From assembly GCF_009914755.1 (NCBI RefSeq), contig NC_060941.1: a stretch of 64,000 nt of DNA. One strand, written 5' to 3'. Below are positions 16,455 to 28,429 of the stretch, piece after piece. The notes under the pieces are model-generated. The model searched no databases. It saw nothing but the letters and a program-made list of their open reading frames with translations, and had not been told where the DNA came from. Both the position numbers and the translations under genes were made by a program. Numbering within the stretch: position 1 is the stretch's first letter; every line of letters starts with the position of its first letter. The DNA is from the human T2T-CHM13v2.0 reference genome, Homo sapiens.

Positions 16455-19400
16455 GTGAGTTCTCCCAGCAGACAAGATTTGGGTTTGTGGGTTGCTGTCT
16501 GTCTGAGGAGTTGCCCTTTATTCCCTGGTGGCTCCTGAGTGCTGGGTGAGAAGGGGACTTAGGCCTCTTTTCTGAGATCGGAACTTAGCCTTTGCTCATG
16601 AAGAAGCTGGAGAGTGGAGACAATTTTAAAATGACAGGTTTTGGAGGTCTTGGTCTTCTCAGGGAGCAATGACTCCAGAGGAAAGAGAATGAACTGGCCC
16701 CTAAGCCCTGTAGTCTGCATCCCAGCTCTTTGCCGTCCAGGTAAATGCACCAAGCAAGGAGTCCCACCCCAGCCAAGCTTTCTGGAAAGCACTGCTGCCC
16801 CAAACTGGAGTTCAACTCCAGCTCAGGCAAATGATTAAAGGGTCAGCTGAGAGACTGTGGACTCCCTCCCACCAAAAAAGCCTTGTTTTCTCCCCAGACA
16901 ATGGTACCCACCATGAAGGAGGATAGCAAACAGGATTGTGGCTCCTGGAGCCCAGCTTCCAAAGACACTTAGTAAAGGGGTTGCTTCAGTGGGGGTCACC
17001 TTATCCTAAGAGAGCAAAACTGCTCCATACCCCACCCCCAATCCTAAACAGAAAGAAGGAAAACCCTGCCTTCCCTTGCAGCCTTTTGCCATTCCCTGCA
17101 CTGGAGCCTCGCCTGAACACAGCTGGGGCCAGTAGCTGGTAGCTTGGAGAAGGGCAAGCAGGGAAAAAAGCGCAGCTCCTGGCCACACTGGGGCCCAGAG
17201 CAGCCAACAGTGAGGCCGAGGTTTGAAGAGCAGAGGCCGACCAGCCGGTGAGTGCCTATGCTGTGGGGGTGACTTTTGGAAGGGTCCTTGTCAGTAAGAA
17301 GAGAGAGAAAATCTAGAGGAAGGGAAGGAAATGGGAGAAGAAAGAAAAACAATAAGTGAGAATGGGGAAAAATAGTTTGTTTTTAATTAATAAGCTTAGC
17401 TGAAATTTACGCGTGTTTAATGTAAATAGATGTGTGTGTCCTATATGTATATTTCAAATCAATATTTCTGTATGGGGAACCCAGTGTGCAAATGCACTCT
17501 GCTCTATACTGTATATAGAATATGTAATAAATAAATCTGCCCAACTATGAAACTTGCTGTGCTTGGGCGTTCGTGTATGCAGGATCTAATCGTGCATATG
17601 TGGATGCATGCATAACCTCTGTGAGTGATGGAGGTTTCTGATTCTGCTCGTGTAAGAAGATCAGTTACCCAAAAGGTTGTGTGTACATTTTTATAACCAT
17701 CACACACCTATGGAAAAGGCAAAAGCTTGGGTATTTGTGTACTTGAATTATGGCTATAAAATATTAGCTAATTCAGATGTCGCACTTGAAAATCTGTCCC
17801 TTGACTTGATATTCAAGCAAAATATACAGCGTATCCTCAAACAAGTGCATATGACTTAACACTACGTTGATTCTACGACAACTTCTTTCCAAAATGTTTC
17901 TCTGGAAGGTAAAATAAATGCTTCAAAGTGGCCCAGAAGAGGTTATGAAATTTTGTGACTTCTTTGTTTGACCATAAAATCCTTTACTGTGTTTCTTACC
18001 CAAGACCGCAGGGACGGTGTGCATTGTGTGATGCCTATTTCATGACAGCGATGAGCGCGGGGGTGGAGGCACAGTTACTTATAAGCACATGTGTCTCACA
18101 GAATTATGAAGCAGAGGTGGACAGAGATGAGCCGAGTGTGAAAGTGACTGTGGAGGTCAAGCAAAAGCACTGCTGTGTACAACAAAATTAGAAAAGTCCC
18201 CAAATCTATGTCTCCAAGCACCAGAGGTATTTCTTCAGACTCAAGATCACAGTCCAGACCCACTCTGGGAAAGAGTGAGGCATGAGGACACTTGCCCCAG
18301 TGGGAAAGGACACAAGATCGCAAAATCCTTACCCTTTATGCAAAACGGCCTCCAAAACAGGTATCACATCGAATCTGCATACTCAGGTTCAAATCTCGGT
18401 GCTTCCACACCCCCCAAGTGGGGATCTTAATTGTGAAGTAATGAAATCTTCTGCCAAACCTCCCTCCCAGGATGTCAGAGGTGAAAGGAAGGACTGAGAG
18501 GTCAGTGGCCCAAGCCCACCTCAGGAATCTTCTTACCAACTCTCAGCCATCAAGGATATCCAAGGCGATGGGGGTGGCTGACTCCTTGGGAGGGGGCATC
18601 CAGGAGGCCAAACGGGGTGGGCGGCAGGCAGGCGGAAAGGAGGCGAGCAGGTAGAAGGTTATTACGAAATTGCTTCCATAAAACCTGTGGCTGTTGTAAA
18701 ACTCTGCTTTCCAAAGACTTTATTTCCTCCTTTCTCTCTAACATTCTCCTTTTTTCTTTTTACAGCACTTTTCCTGGGAGGGGGTGGCCAAGGGACACCA
18801 GGGATGGAAGACAGTCAGGCTCTGAGTGACTGGGCAGGTTTGTGAGAGGCCCAGGGAGAAGTGAGATAAGGCCGCAGGGACGCGCCAGGCCATCTCCACC
18901 CAGACCAGAGGATGAGAAACTGTCAAGGGACAGAGTTGTTAGCCTTTGCTTATCAGGACAGTGGGTTGAAGGCTCCATTTCCCCTAGGCTAGGGGTGGGT
19001 CTCCCTAATGCCCCTCTGCTCTAGCAGAAGCCCCTTGTTCAGAGACCCCCTGGCCCTCCAAGTCAGCCTGGCGCCGAAGCCCCATCCGGTCGGGCCTCTT
19101 TCCCGGGCCCCTTTGCACATTTCCTCTGCCTCAAGCAGCAGGGGGAAGGTTTGGGAACAAAAGTTAGCTTATGCTTTGGAAAGTCCCCCTTCTTCCACCA
19201 GCACTTCTAGTTATTCCTTTCCTGGGCACAGGGCCAACAGCCTTAAGAGGACCGAGGTCAGAGAGGGTATCAGAGTCTTGCCCTGCCCAACCCCTGGTTT
19301 CATCCCTTGTCACTGCATCAGTCGGGGTTGAATTGTCCAACAACCTGGGCTCCCCATTAGCTTGCAAGTCAGGCCCCTCTCCAAGGAGGTGGCACTCAGG

Positions 19401-20085: not shown

Positions 20086-20155
20086 GTGAATCGGGTGGTT
20101 TAATGTTGTTGTGTTCAGAAACCCAGGCCCAACAACATGAAACTACCTAATTCAC
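20086..20155 (-). ncRNA. MIR196A1: microRNA precursor mir-196a-1 (mature 5p at 20128-20149)
   Basis: Minus strand GUGAAUUAGGUAGUUUCAUGUUGUUGGGCCUGGGUUUCUGAACACAACAACAUUAAACCACCCGAUUCAC forms a 70-nt hairpin, located upstream of Hox9 as expected. Confidence 0.98.
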
Positions 20156-20979: not shown

Positions 20980-21780
20980 TTGGCCCCCTAACGTGCCCGC
21001 TCCTCACCTCTGCCTCTCCAGACACCCGCCTGCTCACAGGTGCTCACGCTCACACCCGCACCCATCGCAAAAACGCAGCTGTGCAGGCCGAGGGCGGCGG
21101 CGGACTTACCTGGGCGGCGGCGGTGCCGGCAGTGCGCGGCCGTCGGAAGGTGCGGAGCCAGCGGCCGCGGCCCAGTCCAGGCTCCCTCCCGCCCTCGCCC
21201 AGAAGCGAGGGTCCGAGTGGCCACGTGTCCGGCAGGGAAGTCCGAGGTAGCGAGGGAGTCCACCTGGCCGCCCGCTCCCCCTCCCGGGTATAAATCTTGG
21301 GGACCGGAAATACAATAAAACTTCACCGTGTTGATGAACTTCAAACGGTTTACATCCCCTCCTGTCCTGAAAAGAAAGACGTCCGGGGGCGGATTAAAAG
21401 GAAGGGGAAACAAATTTACGAGCGGCAGAAGCACCCGCCTCGGCCCCTTTCTTTGCCCGCACACTTTGTCCGCGTGGAGAGAAGCAGCCCCAGCCCCCGG
21501 GACTTGGCCTCCGCCGAACCGGCCGCCAGGCGCGCTCTTCTCTCGGAGGAGTCGGCGCTGACCCAGCCCGCGCCCGGCAGAGACTGGAAGCCGCCGCCTA
21601 CACGGAAAATCCACAGAGCCCCGCGCAGACCCTATGATCGGCTCGGCCCGCCGGGCTTGGGATGAGGCTCCCTGCTTCTCGCTAGAGCAGAACTGGGCTC
21701 CCTGGCGCTTCCTTGCGAAAGCCCAGGCTCTCCCAACCACGCCCGGTGGCCTCCATTTTTTGCATCTTTCCGCTGAAAGC
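20980..21780 (-). promoter_or_regulatory. CpG island with a strong minus-strand splice donor: probable pri-miR-196a-1 / long-range HOXB transcript promoter and first exon
   Basis: CCCAG|GTAAGT donor (exon ends 21110), E-box CACGTG 21221-21226, tataaat 21288-21294, about 1 kb upstream of the hairpin. Confidence 0.6.
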
Positions 21781-21789
21781 GGGTTTTTT

Positions 21790-22083
21790 CTTTTTTCTTT
21801 TTTTTTGACAGAGTCCTGCTGTGTCACCCAGGCTGGAGTGCAGTGGCGCGATCTCGGCTCACTGCAACCTCCGCCTCCCGGTTCAAGCGATTCTCCTGCC
21901 TCAGCCTCCCGAGTAGCTGGAACTACAGGCGCCCGCCACCACGCCCGGCTAATTTTTGTATTTTTAGTAGAGACGGGGTTTCACAATATTGGCCAAGCTG
22001 ATCTTGAACTCCTGACCTCGTGATCCACCCTCCTCGGCCTCCCAAAGTGCTGGGATTACAGGCGTAAGCCACCGCGCCCGACC
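21790..22083 (-). mobile_element. Full-length Alu (AluSg-like) with TSD gggtttttt
   Basis: Canonical Alu arms, diagnostic acctcgtgatcc, flanked by gggtttttt on both sides. The only Alu in the first 35 kb. Confidence 0.95.
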
Positions 22084-24083
22084 CAAGGGTTTTTTGTTTT
22101 TGTTTTTTGTTTAACTTTACTTTTCTCTTTCCTTTTCCGTTTCTAGCGGCCAGACCTTTGCCCAGCCCTGCCCGTTTATTGCCGGGTACTTGCTGGAAGG
22201 GGACAGAAGATAAGACTCGGGGTGACTCCCAAGGCCTGAAGGGGGCTGATTGGGCCGGGGGCTCCCAGAGGATAAACCTAGGGGCCGGTCGGTCTTCCTC
22301 GGCGTGGAAGTGAGAGCCACGCGGCGTGGCGGAGCTCCACCACCGTCTCCTTATCTCTTTAAAGCCTCAAAATCAAACAAAACCACTACTACCCAGGCCT
22401 CAAGTTTCCACAGTTTTTGTCTGCTCTGGACCGTTTACTTTTTTTGAAAAAAGAGAACTTGGTGGAATCCAAATTCTCTACTAGGCCTCCGAACCAAAAC
22501 GAAGGAAAATCCGTTTTCTTCTTGGGCTTCAGAGAACTGGGATCGAAGTGATTGACTTCCTGCTCCTTTTGTCTGCTCCAGGGGCCTGGTTAGGTGCCCT
22601 TCTGGATGGGAGAGCAAAAGGTTCTCCATCCTGCCTCACAGTTATTCACCTCCAAAACAGTTTTGAGACACAATGGATGGCTAAGATTAGCTCAGGCTCA
22701 GGCAGAGTGTTCAGGTACAGGAGTGAGGTCCAGCTGCAGGCCCAAGAGGGGGTTTAGTGCACTGAAGGCACCCACCTTCCCATAGATACACACATAGATA
22801 ACCCCACTCCCCAACCCCAAGAAAAGGCACCAAAGTGCTGCTGGATATTTTAAAAATCTGATTAAAAAATAAACGGGCAGGGAAAATACTAGGCAGTATA
22901 GGTTTTGAATTTTCTGAAGGGTTAACTCTGCTGCAGGCAGTCCCACTCGGCCCCAGCTCTCCAGAGGTGGGTGGTGGTCTGGGGGCAGTGCCCTCTGGCC
23001 CCTTCCTAGCACCAAAAGGGAGGAATTGGGGAGCTCTTTAACAGCTGGAGGGCAGGAAGTATCTTATTTCTGGCCAACATTCATATTCCAGTATTTGCAT
23101 GGGGAGGCCCCTCCAGCCTCCCTCATTTGCTCTTTATCATGTTATATTTTCATTCAAAATACTGAGATGGCAGCTACTGGCTGTCACTTCTTCTATTAGG
23201 ATTTCCCTCTGGGAGGACGGCAGGACTGAGGGGCCAGCAGTTTCCAGACCATTCAAGAGTGTTATTACCCATCCCCTACCGGGCACCTGGTGGGGGCCGG
23301 TGTGCTGGCTCCCAGCCTACTGCTGGCCTGGGTCTCTGTGGCTCCCTGGCTGAGAAAAGGAGATGGAAACCTTTTATAGTCTTAGACTCTTTGGAAAAAC
23401 TGAAGAGGCCATAGCCTTAGGATGATGCACCTGCACACCCATATGTTTTGCATACATTTCCAGGGGCTTTGTGGCTTCCCCCTACCCCCATCCCAAGAAC
23501 CCAGGCCATGGATTCCAATTAAAAAAACAAAATTATCTGTATGGTGCCAAAGGACACCCCAAAGCCATTCCCATAGATACCAGCTGTGTCTTTCCGAGGG
23601 CTCCCCAAAGGATAAGTCAACTTTCAGAGGCTCAGCACAGACACCCATGGCCGGGGTGCTGGTGCCGCTCATACACTAACTAGCTGAGATGATGGTCACT
23701 CCGTGAGTAAAGGCCAGTTAGGCAACATTTCTTTTCACCCCCAAACGTTTTCCAAACACTTTTCCAAAAGCATGTTGACCTCCAAATTATTCAGAAAATT
23801 GATGGCCATGCTGGAGGGTTTAGAGGTAACTTCTCCCCACTCCCTTTCTTCCTTGAAGATAAAGCAGAGTTCTAGCGTAACTGGAGGGGGGCTAGACAAT
23901 TTGGTTGGTGAGAGGAGGCAGTGTAGACACAGACGCAGAACACAAGTTCCTTAAAGAAACAAAAATTGAGACCCTTTTCCATTTTGTGAGAGTCACAAGA
24001 ATAAATATTTCTGGGACTTCCTGGCCTGTCTCCCTTCACAGGGTTCATTACAGGCGGGGAGGGAGGAGACAGTCTCGGAGAAT

Positions 24084-24120
24084 TCAGAGGTGCCAGAAGC
24101 CGAGTTCCTAGACCCCAGCT

Positions 24121-24151
<31 letters not shown>

Positions 24152-24371
24152 CCAATTTCTGGCGGCGGGCGGCTGGGGAAGCAGCTCTGTGGTCTCCCGG
24201 CGGGTGAGGCCGAGACAGAGACCAACCTCTAGGCGGCGCCCTGGCGTTGAGTCCGCGCTGAACAAGATTCTCTCGCAGCTCTGCGTCCCGCGCCGGGTGA
24301 AGGGGCCTGTTCCTGCAGGCGCTCGGGGCTCGGCCTGGAGCTGGCGGCCGGCACGTCGCCTTTGGCGCCCT
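24084..24371 (-). pseudogene. Putative HOXB10 unitary pseudogene, exon 2 (decayed homeobox)
   Basis: Acceptor TTTAAC...TTTCTCTTGGTTGGCAG|AG. Reads (E)GAKGDVPAAS/LQAE..GPFTRRGT..LFSADSTPGRRLEVGLCLGLTRRE/SCFPSR..A28 tract..V*ELGFWHL*. Colinear with the in-window HOXB8/HOXB9 homeodomains and with the group-10 RRLE signature. Confidence 0.8.
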
Positions 24372-24465
24372 CTGCCAACCAAGAGAAACACGGTTAAATG
24401 AGTGCGCTGGGACAGAAATCCACAGCTAATCAAGGCCCCATCCGCTCCCACCCCCTGGCCCTTAC

Positions 24466-25090
24466 CTCCTAACTCCATCTCCGACGCTAGGGAGCCTTCC
24501 ACAGCCCGAATCTCCTTTGATGTCCCCAGCAGCCGGCTAGAGGGCAGCGCCAGCATCTTTAAACCCCTCCCCCAGCTTGCAAAAGAAGACACTGAGGTCC
24601 GAAGGAATTAAGTGATTAGCCCAAGATCGGAGCAGCTATTAAAAGTGGTGAAGCAGGGCTGGAGGAGGAGCCCTCTATTCCAAGTGGAATGTTCTTTACC
24701 CCAAATTACCACGACCATTCACCCCCTCCAAACGTGTCTTTCTTGTAAGCAAAATTCATCTCCAGAAAGGCAGCTTTTTGGTGTTTTCTATGTTGGAAGT
24801 TTGGCGTTTCTTGGGTTTCAAATTTGGGGAGGCCCATAAGAAAACTAGAGGCGGATATAGGGACAGCCAGGACAGGATTCAAAGCCAGGGCAAATCCAGC
24901 CCCCTCTTCCAAGAAATGCCAACTCCTCACTTATGACGTCCCTAGCTGCATGACCCTGGCCAAGTGCCTTAGGCCCCGAGGTGCCCAGATGAAGACCTAC
25001 TGGAAAGGGAAGTTGTGAAGTGTGAATGCTTTGTGAAAGAGACTCAACAACTAAGAGAAGCTGCCAGCAGCAGGACTGCTCCACAGCCCC
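24466..25090 (-). pseudogene. Putative HOXB10 unitary pseudogene, exon 1
   Basis: Frameshifted group-10 motifs in the right order: SSPAAGSF/LVVESL (25080-25037), SCS*G/VISEE (24953-24923), NPVLAVP/YIRL*FSYG (24879-24833), SKEIRAVEGSLASEMELG, then phase-1 donor GAG|GTAAGG at 24465. Confidence 0.7.
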
Positions 25091-26215: not shown

Positions 26216-26789
26216 TAAGGAGGAGGACGAAGAGAAAAGAGGAGGGGGAAAGTGGTATGGGGGGTGGGGGTGAGTGGCAAGGAGGAAACCTGCTTTGTTC
26301 ACAGAGAGCCAGCCTAGGACGGAGGGTGTGTGTCTCAGCTGTATATGTATAATGTATTCTTTTGACTTAGAGCAATGTCTATAAAAGTGAGGCCCCTTGG
26401 ACCCCTTGGCCTGTAACTACCTCTTCAATAAGGTACAGAGAATTGGGGCAATTATCTGGCTCATTTCAGGTTCAAACTCCCTTTAGCCTGTAGTATCTGG
26501 ATCTCATAGGGGAAAGGTCTGAGAAGTGGTGGCTTGTATTCCTTTGGCTTTTCAAGGAGTTATTTCCCTTTGCTGTGGTGAGCACGGTCCTGCCTTAGAA
26601 AATGGGTAGACAAGAAATAGGGGGCCAGGAAGCTGGAATTAAACAAAACATCTAAGAAACGCTTGACAAAAATCAGGTCTTACCTACTTCCTGGGCAGCC
26701 AGGAGGAGGCCTTGAAGTTCTCCATACACTCGCCCCAGAGGACCACCACCCCACTAACAGAAGTCACAGCCTTTTGTCTGCTGGGGACT

Positions 26790-26860
26790 TTCATTCCACA
26801 TTCAGCAATCATTTCCTGAGCGCCTACTATGTGCCCAGCACTGGGCTGAGCTCTGGGGCT
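26790..26860 (-). mobile_element. L2 3'-end fragment
   Basis: cattcagcaatcatttcctgagcgcctactatgtgcccagcactgggctgagctctgggg. Confidence 0.65.
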
Positions 26861-28429
26861 TCAGCAGGGCTGCACCCCACCGGTTGGCAGTGCCGATGTG
26901 GCAGCCAGCAAGAGGTCTTGGCTCCTAGAAACAAGTCCAGGACACAAGAAGGAAGACAAGCCTGCTGGGCAAGAACTTCTGGCCAATAGCAGCACTGCCT
27001 TTTCAGGGCCAAGTCCTAGTGCAGGGGCGGAGCCAGAAGGTCGGGAGCACCCCCTTCTAATTGTCTATCAGAAAAAGGCCAACTCCATGGTGCAGATGGC
27101 CCAGTGCAGGGAGGGGTGGGGCAGGCAAAGAGATGGCTAGAGGCTCCTGACCCTCAGTTGGAAGTTTCTGAGAACACCAATTAGCTTTCTTTAATTAGTA
27201 AAGTAGGGAGCAAATGAGCATATATTTCTTCTGCTCTGATTAAAAGCATTTAGGTCAGGTTTTCACAGCCAAGATTATCCAGTTTAAGCTGTCCCAAGAA
27301 GAGAATTGTTTATTTTTTTCTTTGTATTTTCAGGCAGGGGTCTGAATACTATTAGCCAACCATTGGCTTCTTGTCACAGCCTCGAACTGCTGGGCAGGTG
27401 GGTGGTGGTTGTGCAGCACAGAGAGGGGCAACTAGAAATGAGTTGGAGTCTTTCCTGTGCCAAGTCACATTTGTTTGAAATGTATAGACAATTGAGGAGC
27501 AGCCAGGAGGGCTTGGGTTTGGAGTGTAAGTATGTATGGAGGGGGAGGGTACAATTAGCCAGATAATTTCCAGTTCTCCTAATTTGTCTTAACATAGTCC
27601 TTGAAAAAGGAAGTTTCTTTTTACTTCCCAGACCCCAAAGAAGCCTGATTTTTCTCCTGGGAGATCTAGCTTGGTCAATTCACACATGTGGGGAGATGGC
27701 CAGGAAACTTAATAGGCCGGGAAAGAAGAGCTAAGTCCTTCTTTACACTCTGTGTCTAAACAGGCCACAACACAAGAGGCTGGGCGTAATTAGGAGGTCC
27801 CCCAGGATAGTCAGGGGTCACATGCTGTTTATCTCTTACAAACAAGATTACTAAAATATTAGGGAGCAAATCCTTCCCCTTTAAGTTCAGCATTTGGTAT
27901 TCCCCAGCCTCTAACCTTGGCTAAATCAGCCCCAAGTAGAGCTGGGTCCCTGAGGAAATGGAATAAGTGAGTCAATAAGGGACACAAAGGAACATTCTAT
28001 TGCCCAGTCCCCATTTGCTTGACTTATAGGCAGCTTTAGTTAGGAGGCTGTTTCCAGATAGTCTTCCCTTCCAGGAGTTCTGGTATGGTTTTTAGTCCCT
28101 GGGAAGCTGCTTAAGCCTGATTTCCTTCCATTGCTGGTCCAACTGCTGGCCAGTCTAAGATCAGCTTTCCCCAGCAAAGCTCTTCCCACGTTCTCAGGCT
28201 CCCAGCTGCTGGGAAGGAAAGACTGACTCCCACTGGGAGCCCAGACCCTACAGGTAATGGTGGGGAGAGGACACTGCCACCGGAGTGTTTTTACAGGTGA
28301 AGGCTGGCCTGGCAAAATGGAGATGTCAGCCAAGAGAAAGGGTGAAGACCTACGTAAACTGACTATATTTGGCCTCGGCATTTCCCAGACACCAGCTCCT
28401 TTGATCTATCCAAATTGTAGTTGTTAACT

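What the first reader, a model, noticed from the sequence alone, without database searches (positions are those of the whole stretch)
24152..24310. Degenerate homeobox in exact register with real Hox homeodomains
Minus strand TTG TTC AGC GCG GAC TCA ACG CCA GGG CGC CGC CTA GAG GTT GGT CTC TGT CTC GGC CTC ACC CGC CGG GAG = LFSADSTPGRRLEVGLCLGLTRRE. This aligns without gaps to in-window HOXB8 [24 protein letters not shown] and HOXB9 [28 protein letters not shown] is the group-10 form. It is preceded by GPFT (CPYT) and followed, after a 1-nt shift, by AGC TGC TTC CCC AGC CGC = SCFPSR (IWFQNR). The recognition-helix W48/N51 are lost, so DNA binding is dead. The in-window comparison is the part of the HOXB10 case that does not rely on memory.
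Basis: seen in the sequence. Interest (0 to 1): 0.85.

Follow-up and report, generated by a model that had tools for sequence, protein, structure and literature searches.

The report
Decayed HOXB10 homeobox inside lncRNA LINC03057
The start of the last exon of the human non-coding RNA LINC03057, just upstream of microRNA miR-196a-1, looks like the decayed second exon (homeobox) of HOXB10, a Hox gene thought to have vanished from land vertebrates.

Summary
The minus strand at 24265-24194 reads LFSADSTPGRRLEVGLCLGLTRRE, which matches HOXB8 at 12/24 and HOXB9 at 10/24 without gaps.

Profile methods do not detect it: Pfam and a 21-HOX protein profile gave nothing, and nhmmer gave E=2.7. Protein similarity alone is borderline (2 of 90 block-shuffled windows reach its gapped score).

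DNA comparison with real group-10 exon 2 settles it. The stretch from the LINC03057 splice acceptor (24371) to the A-run aligns colinearly with HOXA10, HOXC10 and HOXD10 exon 2, from the acceptor to the homeobox end. Z-scores are 7-11 under three scoring schemes. None of 1000 shuffles and none of 5478 real 219-nt tiles from 303 kb of HOX-cluster DNA reach its score. HOXB13 and HOXB1 controls give nothing.

The core starts 106 nt after the acceptor (107 in HOXA10, 110 in HOXC10/HOXD10). The site lies 5' of MIR196A1 on the HOX strand, where Hox10 lies in the A and C clusters.

Four small indels break the frame, W48 and N51 are gone, and no exon 1 survives.

I read it as a HOXB10 exon-2 relic reused as a lncRNA exon (confidence 0.85). 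Cross-species evidence could not be obtained. The literature searches found no prior report.

The parts
24372..24373 (-). AG splice acceptor of the last exon of LINC03057 (ttggcag|AGGGCG). I propose it is the retained exon-2 acceptor of HOXB10.
   Evidence: RefSeq exon 22400-24371 (given annotation) and sequence. The ungapped LF..RRLE core starts 106 nt after the acceptor, against 107 nt in HOXA10, 110 in HOXC10 and HOXD10, 95 in HOXB9 and HOXC9, and 71 in HOXB8.
24321..24371 (-). Equivalent of the stretch between the splice site and the homeodomain. In the acceptor's phase it reads G-A-K-G-D-V-P-A.
   Evidence: The human group-10 genes read N-S-K-G-E (HOXA10), E-I-K-A-E (HOXC10) and E-I-K-S-D (HOXD10) at the same codons. 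Amia HoxB10 reads S-K-G-E-N. In the fixed-register test, 215 of 127,954 window positions score as well over 8 codons. The NWLTAK motif is not recognisable.
24141..24320 (-). Homeobox equivalent (homeodomain residues 1-60 as mapped through the MAFFT alignment to HOXA10). The frame is broken by small indels.
   Evidence: Coordinate map. MAFFT alignment A1 shows indels of 1, 2, 3 and 5 nt. Identity is 123/237 to HOXA10, 125/240 to HOXD10 and 119/240 to HOXC10. At columns where the three group-10 genes agree it is 94/162.
24296..24307 (-). GPFT, equivalent to CPYT (homeodomain residues 6-9).
   Evidence: GCCCCTTCAC against TGCCCCTACAC.
24194..24265 (-). Best-preserved core, homeodomain residues 21-44 (LFSADSTPGRRLEVGLCLGLTRRE).
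   Evidence: 12/24 with HOXB8. The 13-mer GCGCCGCCTAGAG is identical in HOXD10.
24162..24186 (-). Remains of the recognition helix (WFQNRR), read as C-F-P-S-R after a 1-nt shift. Extra bases follow, and then RRQKLEKK matches RRMKLKKM.
   Evidence: traceback; 5-nt insertion at columns 204-208.
24124..24151 (-). Run of 28 A, starting at the equivalent of the lysine-rich end of the homeodomain (K57-K58).
   Evidence: That it grew from the A-rich coding sequence is inference.
22400..24371 (-). Last exon of LINC03057 (also known as RP11-357H14.17). Its first ~230 nt are the relic. The remainder would correspond in position to a former 3'UTR, which I did not test.
   Evidence: Annotation. Aliases from PMC12388995 (passages).
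20086..20155 (-). MIR196A1, the synteny anchor. It lies 2245 nt 3' of the end of LINC03057.
   Evidence: MIR196B lies 1042 nt 3' of HOXA10 and MIR196A2 lies 1459 nt 3' of HOXC10, each between Hox10 and Hox9.
26684..26928 (-). First exon of two LINC03057 transcripts. It shows no similarity to Hox10 exon 1.
   Evidence: tblastn with human HOXA10, HOXD10 and HOXB9 exon 1 and with 10 fish HoxB10 N-terminal parts (all E>0.3).

Best explanation
The first ~230 nt of the last exon of LINC03057 (24371 down to about 24141, minus strand) are the decayed second exon of HOXB10. This covers the short stretch before the homeodomain and the homeobox itself.

It no longer encodes a protein domain. Small indels break the frame, the key DNA-contact residues W48 and N51 are gone, and exon 1 is unrecognisable.

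What survives is the transcription-unit architecture. The old exon-2 splice acceptor is still used, and the transcript still ends 1-2 kb upstream of the miR-196 gene that follows Hox10 in other clusters.

Shown: the DNA homology, its colinearity from the acceptor, and the synteny.

Inferred: the gene decayed where it stood rather than being deleted; the transcript was kept as a non-coding RNA; and the A-run grew out of the A-rich lysine codons. Any present function belongs to the lncRNA or to its transcription (mouse Gm53, in the same relative place, affects Hoxb9 and Hoxb13 when knocked down). It does not belong to the homeobox remnant.
For: 1. DNA local alignment of 24371-24125 against real exon 2 (acceptor to homeobox end) gave HOXA10 236 (null 92.6, sd 16, z 9.0; exon positions 6-239 aligned to HOXA10 positions 6-235), HOXD10 z 10.7 and HOXC10 z 10.8, with 0/1000 shuffles each. 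Controls: HOXC9 6.2, HOXB9 4.2, HOXB5 4.3, HOXA11 4.1, HOXB8 3.4, HOXB3 3.2, HOXB1 1.4, HOXB13 0.4, HOXD13 -1.0.
2. With the A-run removed and three scoring schemes, z was 7.2-11.2. 0/1000 shuffles and 0/5478 real 219-nt tiles reached the score for each group-10 query. In one search the candidate tile ranked first of 5470 tiles for all three queries.
3. An independent MAFFT alignment is colinear with only four small indels.
4. The splice acceptor sits at the group-10 spacing.
5. The position is 5' of MIR196A1 on the HOX strand, as for HOXA10/MIR196B and HOXC10/MIR196A2.
6. Frameshift-tolerant protein-to-DNA alignment gave z 6.7-8.9 for groups 8-10, falling to 0.8 for HOXB13 and -0.3 for HOXB1.
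7. RRLE, P7 and L21-F22 are group-9/10 features.
8. The other two protein-level look-alikes in the window have no DNA support (z -1.3 to 1.6), so the DNA test discriminates.
9. The zone poor in masked repeats extends to about 34.6 kb.
Against: - Pfam hmmscan found no family at E<=10.
- A 21-homeodomain HMM with filters off did not report the frame even at E<=1000.
- nhmmer with the 21-homeobox profile gave E=2.7, with three better chance hits.
- tblastn with HOXB9 at E<=10 missed it.
- The ungapped score of 51 is tied by two other window sites. The 27.6-kb site is as extreme at protein level (z 8.2 against HOXB13).
- Identity to group-10 exons is only 50-52%.
- At columns that separate group 10 from group 9, the candidate matches group 10 at 11, group 9 at 8 and neither at 4. 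Some of the group-9 matches are A-run columns.
- With the A-run included, the HOXC10 tile margin was 173 against 172.
- Fish HoxB10 proteins are no closer than the human paralogues.
- No trace of exon 1 was found.
- Only 23 of the 39 human HOX homeoboxes were used.
[quoted passage not shown] Survival of recognisable sequence for that long is a priori unlikely.
- No other vertebrate genome could be examined.
Confidence: 0.85

Rival explanations
1. Chance resemblance. A GC-rich lncRNA exon start happens to translate into something homeodomain-like.
For: All profile methods fail. The family-wise protein-level p is only about 0.02 (2/90). Equal-scoring protein hits exist at 27.6 kb and 17.9 kb. 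The site was found by scanning, and several supporting features were noticed afterwards.
Against: At DNA level, 0/1000 shuffles and 0/5478 real tiles reach the score under three schemes and three group-10 queries. The score falls off by paralogue group, with null controls. The alignment is colinear from an independently annotated acceptor at the group-10 spacing. The strand and the position relative to MIR196A1 are correct. The other protein hits have no DNA support.
Confidence: 0.07
2. A later copy of part of another group-9 or group-10 gene (HOXA10, HOXC10, HOXD10 or HOXB9), by segmental copy, gene conversion or retroposition, rather than the resident HOXB10.
For: The A-run next to the homology could suggest a retrocopy tail. 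HOXC9 and HOXB8 score well at protein level.
Against: - Identity to HOXA10, HOXD10 and HOXC10 is equal and low (52%, 52% and 50%), so no single paralogue stands out as a donor.
- The homology starts at a used splice acceptor and carries nothing from exon 1, which does not fit a processed copy.
- The A-run falls inside the homeobox equivalent, not after a 3'UTR.
- The stretch is single-copy in the genome by BLAST.
- It sits exactly at the expected Hox10 position.
Confidence: 0.05
3. A real Hox relic, but of a different gene: for example a decayed tandem duplicate of HOXB9, or a remnant of HOXB11.
For: At columns that separate group 10 from group 9, the candidate favours group 10 only 11 to 8. 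EV at residues 33-34 is the group-8/9 form. HOXA11 reaches z 4.1-6.5.
Against: DNA z-scores are 9-10.8 for group 10 against 4.2-6.2 for group 9 and 4.1 for HOXA11. The acceptor spacing of 106 nt fits group 10 (107 and 110 nt), not group 9 (95 nt). RRLE is the group-10 form. miR-196 lies between Hox9 and Hox10 in the A and C clusters.
Confidence: 0.03

Closest known systems
Exon 2 of human HOXA10, HOXC10 and HOXD10 (paralogue group 10 homeobox exons)
   Same: Colinear DNA homology runs from the splice acceptor to the end of the homeobox. The acceptor-to-homeobox spacing matches. Both have RRLE. The position 5' of a miR-196 gene and of Hox9 is the same for HOXA10 and HOXC10.
   Different: Identity is only 50-52%. 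Four indels break the frame. The NWLTAK motif, W48 and N51 are lost. Pfam finds no match, there is no recognisable exon 1, and a 28-A run replaces the end of the homeobox.
HoxB10 of cartilaginous and ray-finned fishes (P0226, P0240, P0249, P0258, P0275, P0276, P0277)
   Same: This is the expected orthologue by position. The homeodomain core and the S/T-K-G/A-E-N motif before it resemble the candidate's A-K-G-D exon start.
   Different: Only proteins could be compared, and they are no closer to the candidate than the human paralogues (z 5.7-8.2 against 7.5-8.6). Coelacanth and lungfish HoxB10 were not among the 120 hits listed. No DNA or synteny was available.
Protein-coding genes that decayed in place and live on as lncRNA exons (recalled from memory: Xist exons derived from Lnx3) and ancient unitary gene relics (recalled: vitellogenin remnants in mammals)
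   Same: A lost coding gene leaves recognisable exon remnants at its syntenic site, and splice signals are reused by a non-coding transcript.
   Different: [quoted passage not shown] Those comparisons are recalled and were not tested here.
Mouse lncRNA Gm53, next to Mir196a-1
   Same: It occupies the same relative position, within the 19 kb 5' of Hoxb9 that also holds Mir196a-1 (bioRxiv 10.1101/2024.07.20.604409, passages). Its knock-down changes Hoxb9 and Hoxb13 (PMC8920890, passages).
   Different: Orthology with LINC03057, and the presence of the relic in Gm53, could not be tested because no mouse sequence was available.

Membership tests
Homeodomain (Pfam PF00046), functional domain | Profile match at or above the family threshold | tested here: not met
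   hmmscan of the 199-aa frame and of the 57-aa stretch found 0 families at E<=10. A 21-HOX HMM with filters off gave no report at E<=1000.
Homeodomain (Pfam PF00046), functional domain | Intact reading frame with the recognition-helix residues W48, F49, N51 and R53 | tested here: not met
   The MAFFT alignment has indels of 1, 2, 3 and 5 nt. In the +1 register the residues read C-F-P-S-R.
HOX paralogue group 10 exon 2 (as a relic or unitary pseudogene) | DNA homology to group-10 exon 2 beyond chance, and stronger than to other groups | tested here: met
   z 9.0-10.8 against 6.2 or less for the other groups. 0/1000 shuffles and 0/5478 real tiles under three schemes. Top tile in the window.
HOX paralogue group 10 exon 2 (as a relic or unitary pseudogene) | Exon structure: splice acceptor about 47-50 nt before the homeobox | tested here: met
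   The core starts 106 nt after the LINC03057 acceptor, against 107 nt (HOXA10) and 110 nt (HOXC10, HOXD10).
HOX paralogue group 10 exon 2 (as a relic or unitary pseudogene) | Synteny: same strand as the cluster, between miR-196 and the posterior genes | tested here: met
   plus the given annotation.
HOX paralogue group 10 exon 2 (as a relic or unitary pseudogene) | Group-10 diagnostic residues or columns | tested here: inconclusive
   RRLE, P7 and L21-F22 are present. EV is the group-8/9 form. Diagnostic columns split 11 for group 10, 8 for group 9 and 4 for neither. The best protein score is with HOXB8.
HOX paralogue group 10 exon 2 (as a relic or unitary pseudogene) | Orthology to HoxB10 of species that keep the gene, and conservation of the relic in other tetrapods | not testable with these tools
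   No vertebrate genome other than the human reference was available. Only fish HoxB10 proteins were obtained.
HOX paralogue group 10 exon 2 (as a relic or unitary pseudogene) | Remains of exon 1 | tested here: not met
   tblastn with human group-9/10 exon 1 and with 10 fish HoxB10 N-terminal parts found nothing upstream.
Processed (retroposed) pseudogene | Intron-less copy of an mRNA with a poly(A) tail after the 3'UTR | tested here: not met
   The homology begins at a used splice acceptor, with nothing from exon 1. The A-run lies within the homeobox equivalent.
CTCF site as an explanation of the GC-rich patch | Match to the CTCF core motif (motif recalled from memory) | tested here: not met
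   The pattern with up to 1 mismatch gave 2 matches in the window, neither near 24.2 kb.

The most novel reading that the evidence does not exclude
HOXB10 was never deleted from the lineage leading to humans. Its transcription unit survived for several hundred million years as a non-coding RNA (LINC03057, also known as RP11-357H14.17, and perhaps mouse Gm53). That RNA still uses the old exon-2 splice acceptor, is still switched on colinearly with the posterior HOXB genes, and now acts in cis on HOXB9/HOXB13 or helps deliver miR-196a-1. This would be a Hox gene converted into a regulatory lncRNA, with the dead homeobox as its fossil.
Probability: 0.45. Interest if true: 0.78.

Novelty: new member of a known kind. 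Interest (0 to 1): 0.68.

Why it matters
Textbook Hox inventories say that tetrapods have no HoxB10, and the HOXB9-HOXB13 gap is treated as spacer DNA.

A recognisable exon-2 relic at the exact syntenic site would show that the gene decayed where it stood rather than being deleted. It would give a sequence handle for dating the loss across tetrapods, through shared lesions. It would also explain the origin and exon structure of a much-studied cancer-associated lncRNA (RP11-357H14.17, also known as LINC03057) and of the transcription unit just upstream of miR-196a-1.

It would also make one question testable: whether Hox-cluster lncRNAs can be former Hox genes that kept their colinear regulation.

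Tried and rejected
Searches and tests that found nothing:
- Pfam scan of the frame: nothing.
- tblastn with the HOXB9 homeodomain at default sensitivity: nothing.
- 21-HOX protein HMM against the six-frame window: the candidate was not reported.
- nhmmer with the 21-homeobox DNA profile: right register, but E=2.7.
- Search for Hox10 exon 1 upstream with human HOXA10, HOXD10 and HOXB9 and with 10 fish HoxB10 proteins: nothing.
- CTCF-motif explanation: no site.
- BLAST of the stretch against the whole reference: self only. This method is word-seeded and so cannot see 52% identity.

Other homeodomain-like hits:
- The protein-level hits at 27628-27554 (-) and 17875-18012 (+) were considered as further relics. 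I rejected them for lack of DNA-level support, although the first remains statistically odd at protein level.

Limits of the comparison set:
- The first protein search (HOXD10 exon 1) listed only HoxD10.
- Coelacanth and lungfish HoxB10 were not reached, because only the best 120 hits are listed.
- HOXC11 and HOXD11 homeoboxes were not in the stretches I guessed (L028, L029).
- Only 23 of 39 human HOX homeoboxes were used.

Literature:
- Searches.
- None of the papers seen (listings; passages for PMC7875771, PMC3038165, bioRxiv 10.1101/2024.07.20.604409, PMC8920890 and PMC12388995) reports a HOXB10 remnant in a tetrapod.
- Subscription journals and supplements were not searchable, so I cannot exclude a prior report.

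Full report
**What is in the sequence**

The core at 24265-24194 translates to LFSADSTPGRRLEVGLCLGLTRRE. Aligned without gaps to homeodomain residues 21-44, it shares:
- 12/24 residues with HOXB8 (BLOSUM62 score 50);
- 11/24 with HOXC9 and with HOXD8;
- 10/24 with HOXB9, HOXA10 and HOXD10;
- 3-9/24 with the other 14 human HOX homeodomains I had at that point, 21 of 39 in all.

GPFT lies upstream at 24307-24296, one codon closer to LF than CPYT is in a real homeodomain. C-F-P-S-R follows in the +1 frame at 24183-24169. A run of 28 A lies at 24151-24124.

The stretch is the very start of the last exon of LINC03057 (22400-24371). It is not masked as a repeat and forms a local GC peak of 0.66.

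**Tests that failed or were borderline**

- Pfam found no family at E<=10.
- tblastn with HOXB9 at E<=10 missed it.
- A profile HMM of 21 HOX homeodomains, run with all filters off on the six-frame window, did not report the frame even at E<=1000.
The score was only 2.8 bits (E=2.7), with three better chance hits.
- In an ungapped scan of 294.5 kb of real HOX-cluster DNA in six frames, its score of 51 was tied by two other sites in this window and beaten by a lysine-rich low-complexity stretch.
Another site at 27628-27554 also reached 54, and one at 17875-18012 reached 51.
- Shuffles: 1/4000 (ungapped) and 0/6000 (gapped) dinucleotide shuffles of the 249-nt region reached the real score. Window-wide, 2 of 90 block-shuffled windows reached 54.

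On protein similarity alone the case is therefore only about p=0.02.

**The decisive evidence**

The ungapped core starts 106 nt after it. The corresponding distance is 107 nt in HOXA10, 110 in HOXC10 and HOXD10, 95 in HOXB9 and HOXC9, and 71 in HOXB8. The window has only 6 annotated minus-strand acceptors.

I then aligned the DNA from the acceptor to the A-run with real exon 2, taken from the acceptor to the homeobox end.
- Scores were 236 for HOXA10 (shuffle mean 92.6, sd 16, maximum 187; z 9.0), 194 for HOXD10 (z 10.7) and 170 for HOXC10 (z 10.8), with 0/1000 shuffles each.
- The HOXA10 alignment ran from position 6 to 235 of the gene's exon against 6 to 239 of the candidate.
- Other groups fell away: HOXC9 6.2, HOXB5 4.3, HOXB9 4.2, HOXA11 4.1, HOXB8 3.4, HOXB3 3.2, HOXB1 1.4, HOXB13 0.4, HOXD13 -1.0.
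- On real DNA the candidate tile ranked first of 5470 tiles for all three group-10 queries. The margin was narrow for HOXC10 (173 against 172) while the A-run was included.
- With the A-rich ends removed, and under three scoring schemes, 0/1000 shuffles and 0/5478 real tiles reached its score for any group-10 query. HOXB13 and HOXB1 showed nothing.

MAFFT independently produced a colinear alignment with four indels of 1, 2, 3 and 5 nt. Identity is 123/237 to HOXA10, 125/240 to HOXD10 and 119/240 to HOXC10. It is 94/162 at columns where the three agree.

A frameshift-tolerant protein-to-DNA alignment, with parameters fixed beforehand, gave the same gradient and carried the match on to RRQKLEKK against RRMKLKKM. 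That places the start of the A-run at the lysine-rich end of the homeodomain.

In the acceptor's phase the exon opens G-A-K-G-D. The human group-10 genes read N-S-K-G-E, E-I-K-A-E and E-I-K-S-D there. 215 of 127,954 window positions match as well over 8 codons.

**Position**

MIR196A1 lies 2245 nt 3' of the end of LINC03057. MIR196B lies 1042 nt 3' of HOXA10 and MIR196A2 lies 1459 nt 3' of HOXC10, each between Hox10 and Hox9. The window has only two masked repeats before 34.6 kb and many after it.

**What is not there**

- No exon 1. Human HOXA10, HOXD10 and HOXB9 exon 1 and 10 fish HoxB10 N-terminal parts found nothing upstream.
- The NWLTAK motif is gone.
- Seven fish HoxB10 proteins have ordinary group-10 homeodomains and are no closer to the candidate than the human paralogues.
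- Columns that separate group 10 from group 9 favour group 10 only 11 to 8.
- The stretch is single-copy by BLAST, and there is no CTCF-like motif at it.
- The two other protein-level look-alikes have no DNA-level support (z -1.3 to 1.6), and no relic of groups 11-13 appeared.

**Interpretation**

The best reading is a HOXB10 exon-2 relic: a dead homeobox whose splice acceptor and transcription unit persist as LINC03057.

Identity of 58% at group-10-invariant columns corresponds to roughly 0.6 substitutions per site by the Jukes-Cantor formula. This is my own calculation, and it is biased low because the alignment was optimised. That figure is compatible with several hundred million years of near-neutral decay at rates I recall of 1-2 x 10^-9 per site per year. 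There are fewer indels than I would expect under full neutrality. These are inferences.

**Literature**

- Liang et al. list it among genes lost in mammals (PMC3038165, passages).
- The Hoxb13 insulation paper calls Hoxb10 'elusive'. It places the lncRNA Gm53 and Mir196a-1 in the 19 kb next to Hoxb9, and says the spacer is poorly conserved (bioRxiv 10.1101/2024.07.20.604409, passages).
- Gm53 knock-down alters Hoxb9 and Hoxb13 (PMC8920890, passages).
- LINC03057 is also known as RP11-357H14.17 and is discussed as a cancer lncRNA (PMC12388995, passages; 20 of 40 papers listed).
- None of the listings or passages seen mentions a HOXB10 remnant. Supplements and subscription journals were not searchable.

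**Verdict**

The missing piece is cross-species evidence.

Noticed in passing
window 27554-27628 (-): GSKKKLPFSRTMLRQIRRTGNYLAN resembles the N-terminal arm and helix 1 of the HOXB13 homeodomain (raw 54; z 8.2, 0/1500 shuffles). Nothing homeodomain-like follows it, and it has no DNA-level similarity to any group 10-13 homeobox (z -1.1 to 1.6). It is probably chance, but it is statistically odd at protein level.
   Followed up: partly
window 17875-18012 (+): A weak homeodomain-like translation on the strand opposite to the HOX genes, containing a stop codon (raw 51; z 5.4 against HOXB5). It has no DNA-level support, and I take it as chance.
   Followed up: partly
window 1-34600 versus 34600-64000: There are only two masked repeats (17293-17395 and 21779-22140) in the first 34.6 kb and dozens afterwards. 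The repeat-poor, Hox-like zone thus extends about 20 kb beyond HOXB9, across MIR196A1 and LINC03057.
   Followed up: no
window 24124-24151: A run of 28 A on the minus strand inside the lncRNA exon falls at the equivalent of the lysine-rich end of the homeodomain. It may have grown from A-rich codons. Its length in other assemblies is unknown.
   Followed up: partly
window 23993-24592 (-): A 199-aa open frame runs across the intron-exon boundary and through the relic. It has no Pfam match, and I did not treat it as a gene.
   Followed up: partly
L015:3124-3225 (+), upstream part of the HOXC10 region: A lysine/arginine/glutamate-rich low-complexity translation gave the highest non-homeobox score against homeodomains (60). 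It is a reminder that the basic ends of the homeodomain attract low-complexity false hits.
   Followed up: no
window 53651 (-) and nearby: An AT-rich stretch (GC 0.30) gives an ungapped score of 51 against the basic C-terminal end of HOXD10 and scores high against the A-rich HOXC10 DNA. This is a compositional artefact.
   Followed up: partly
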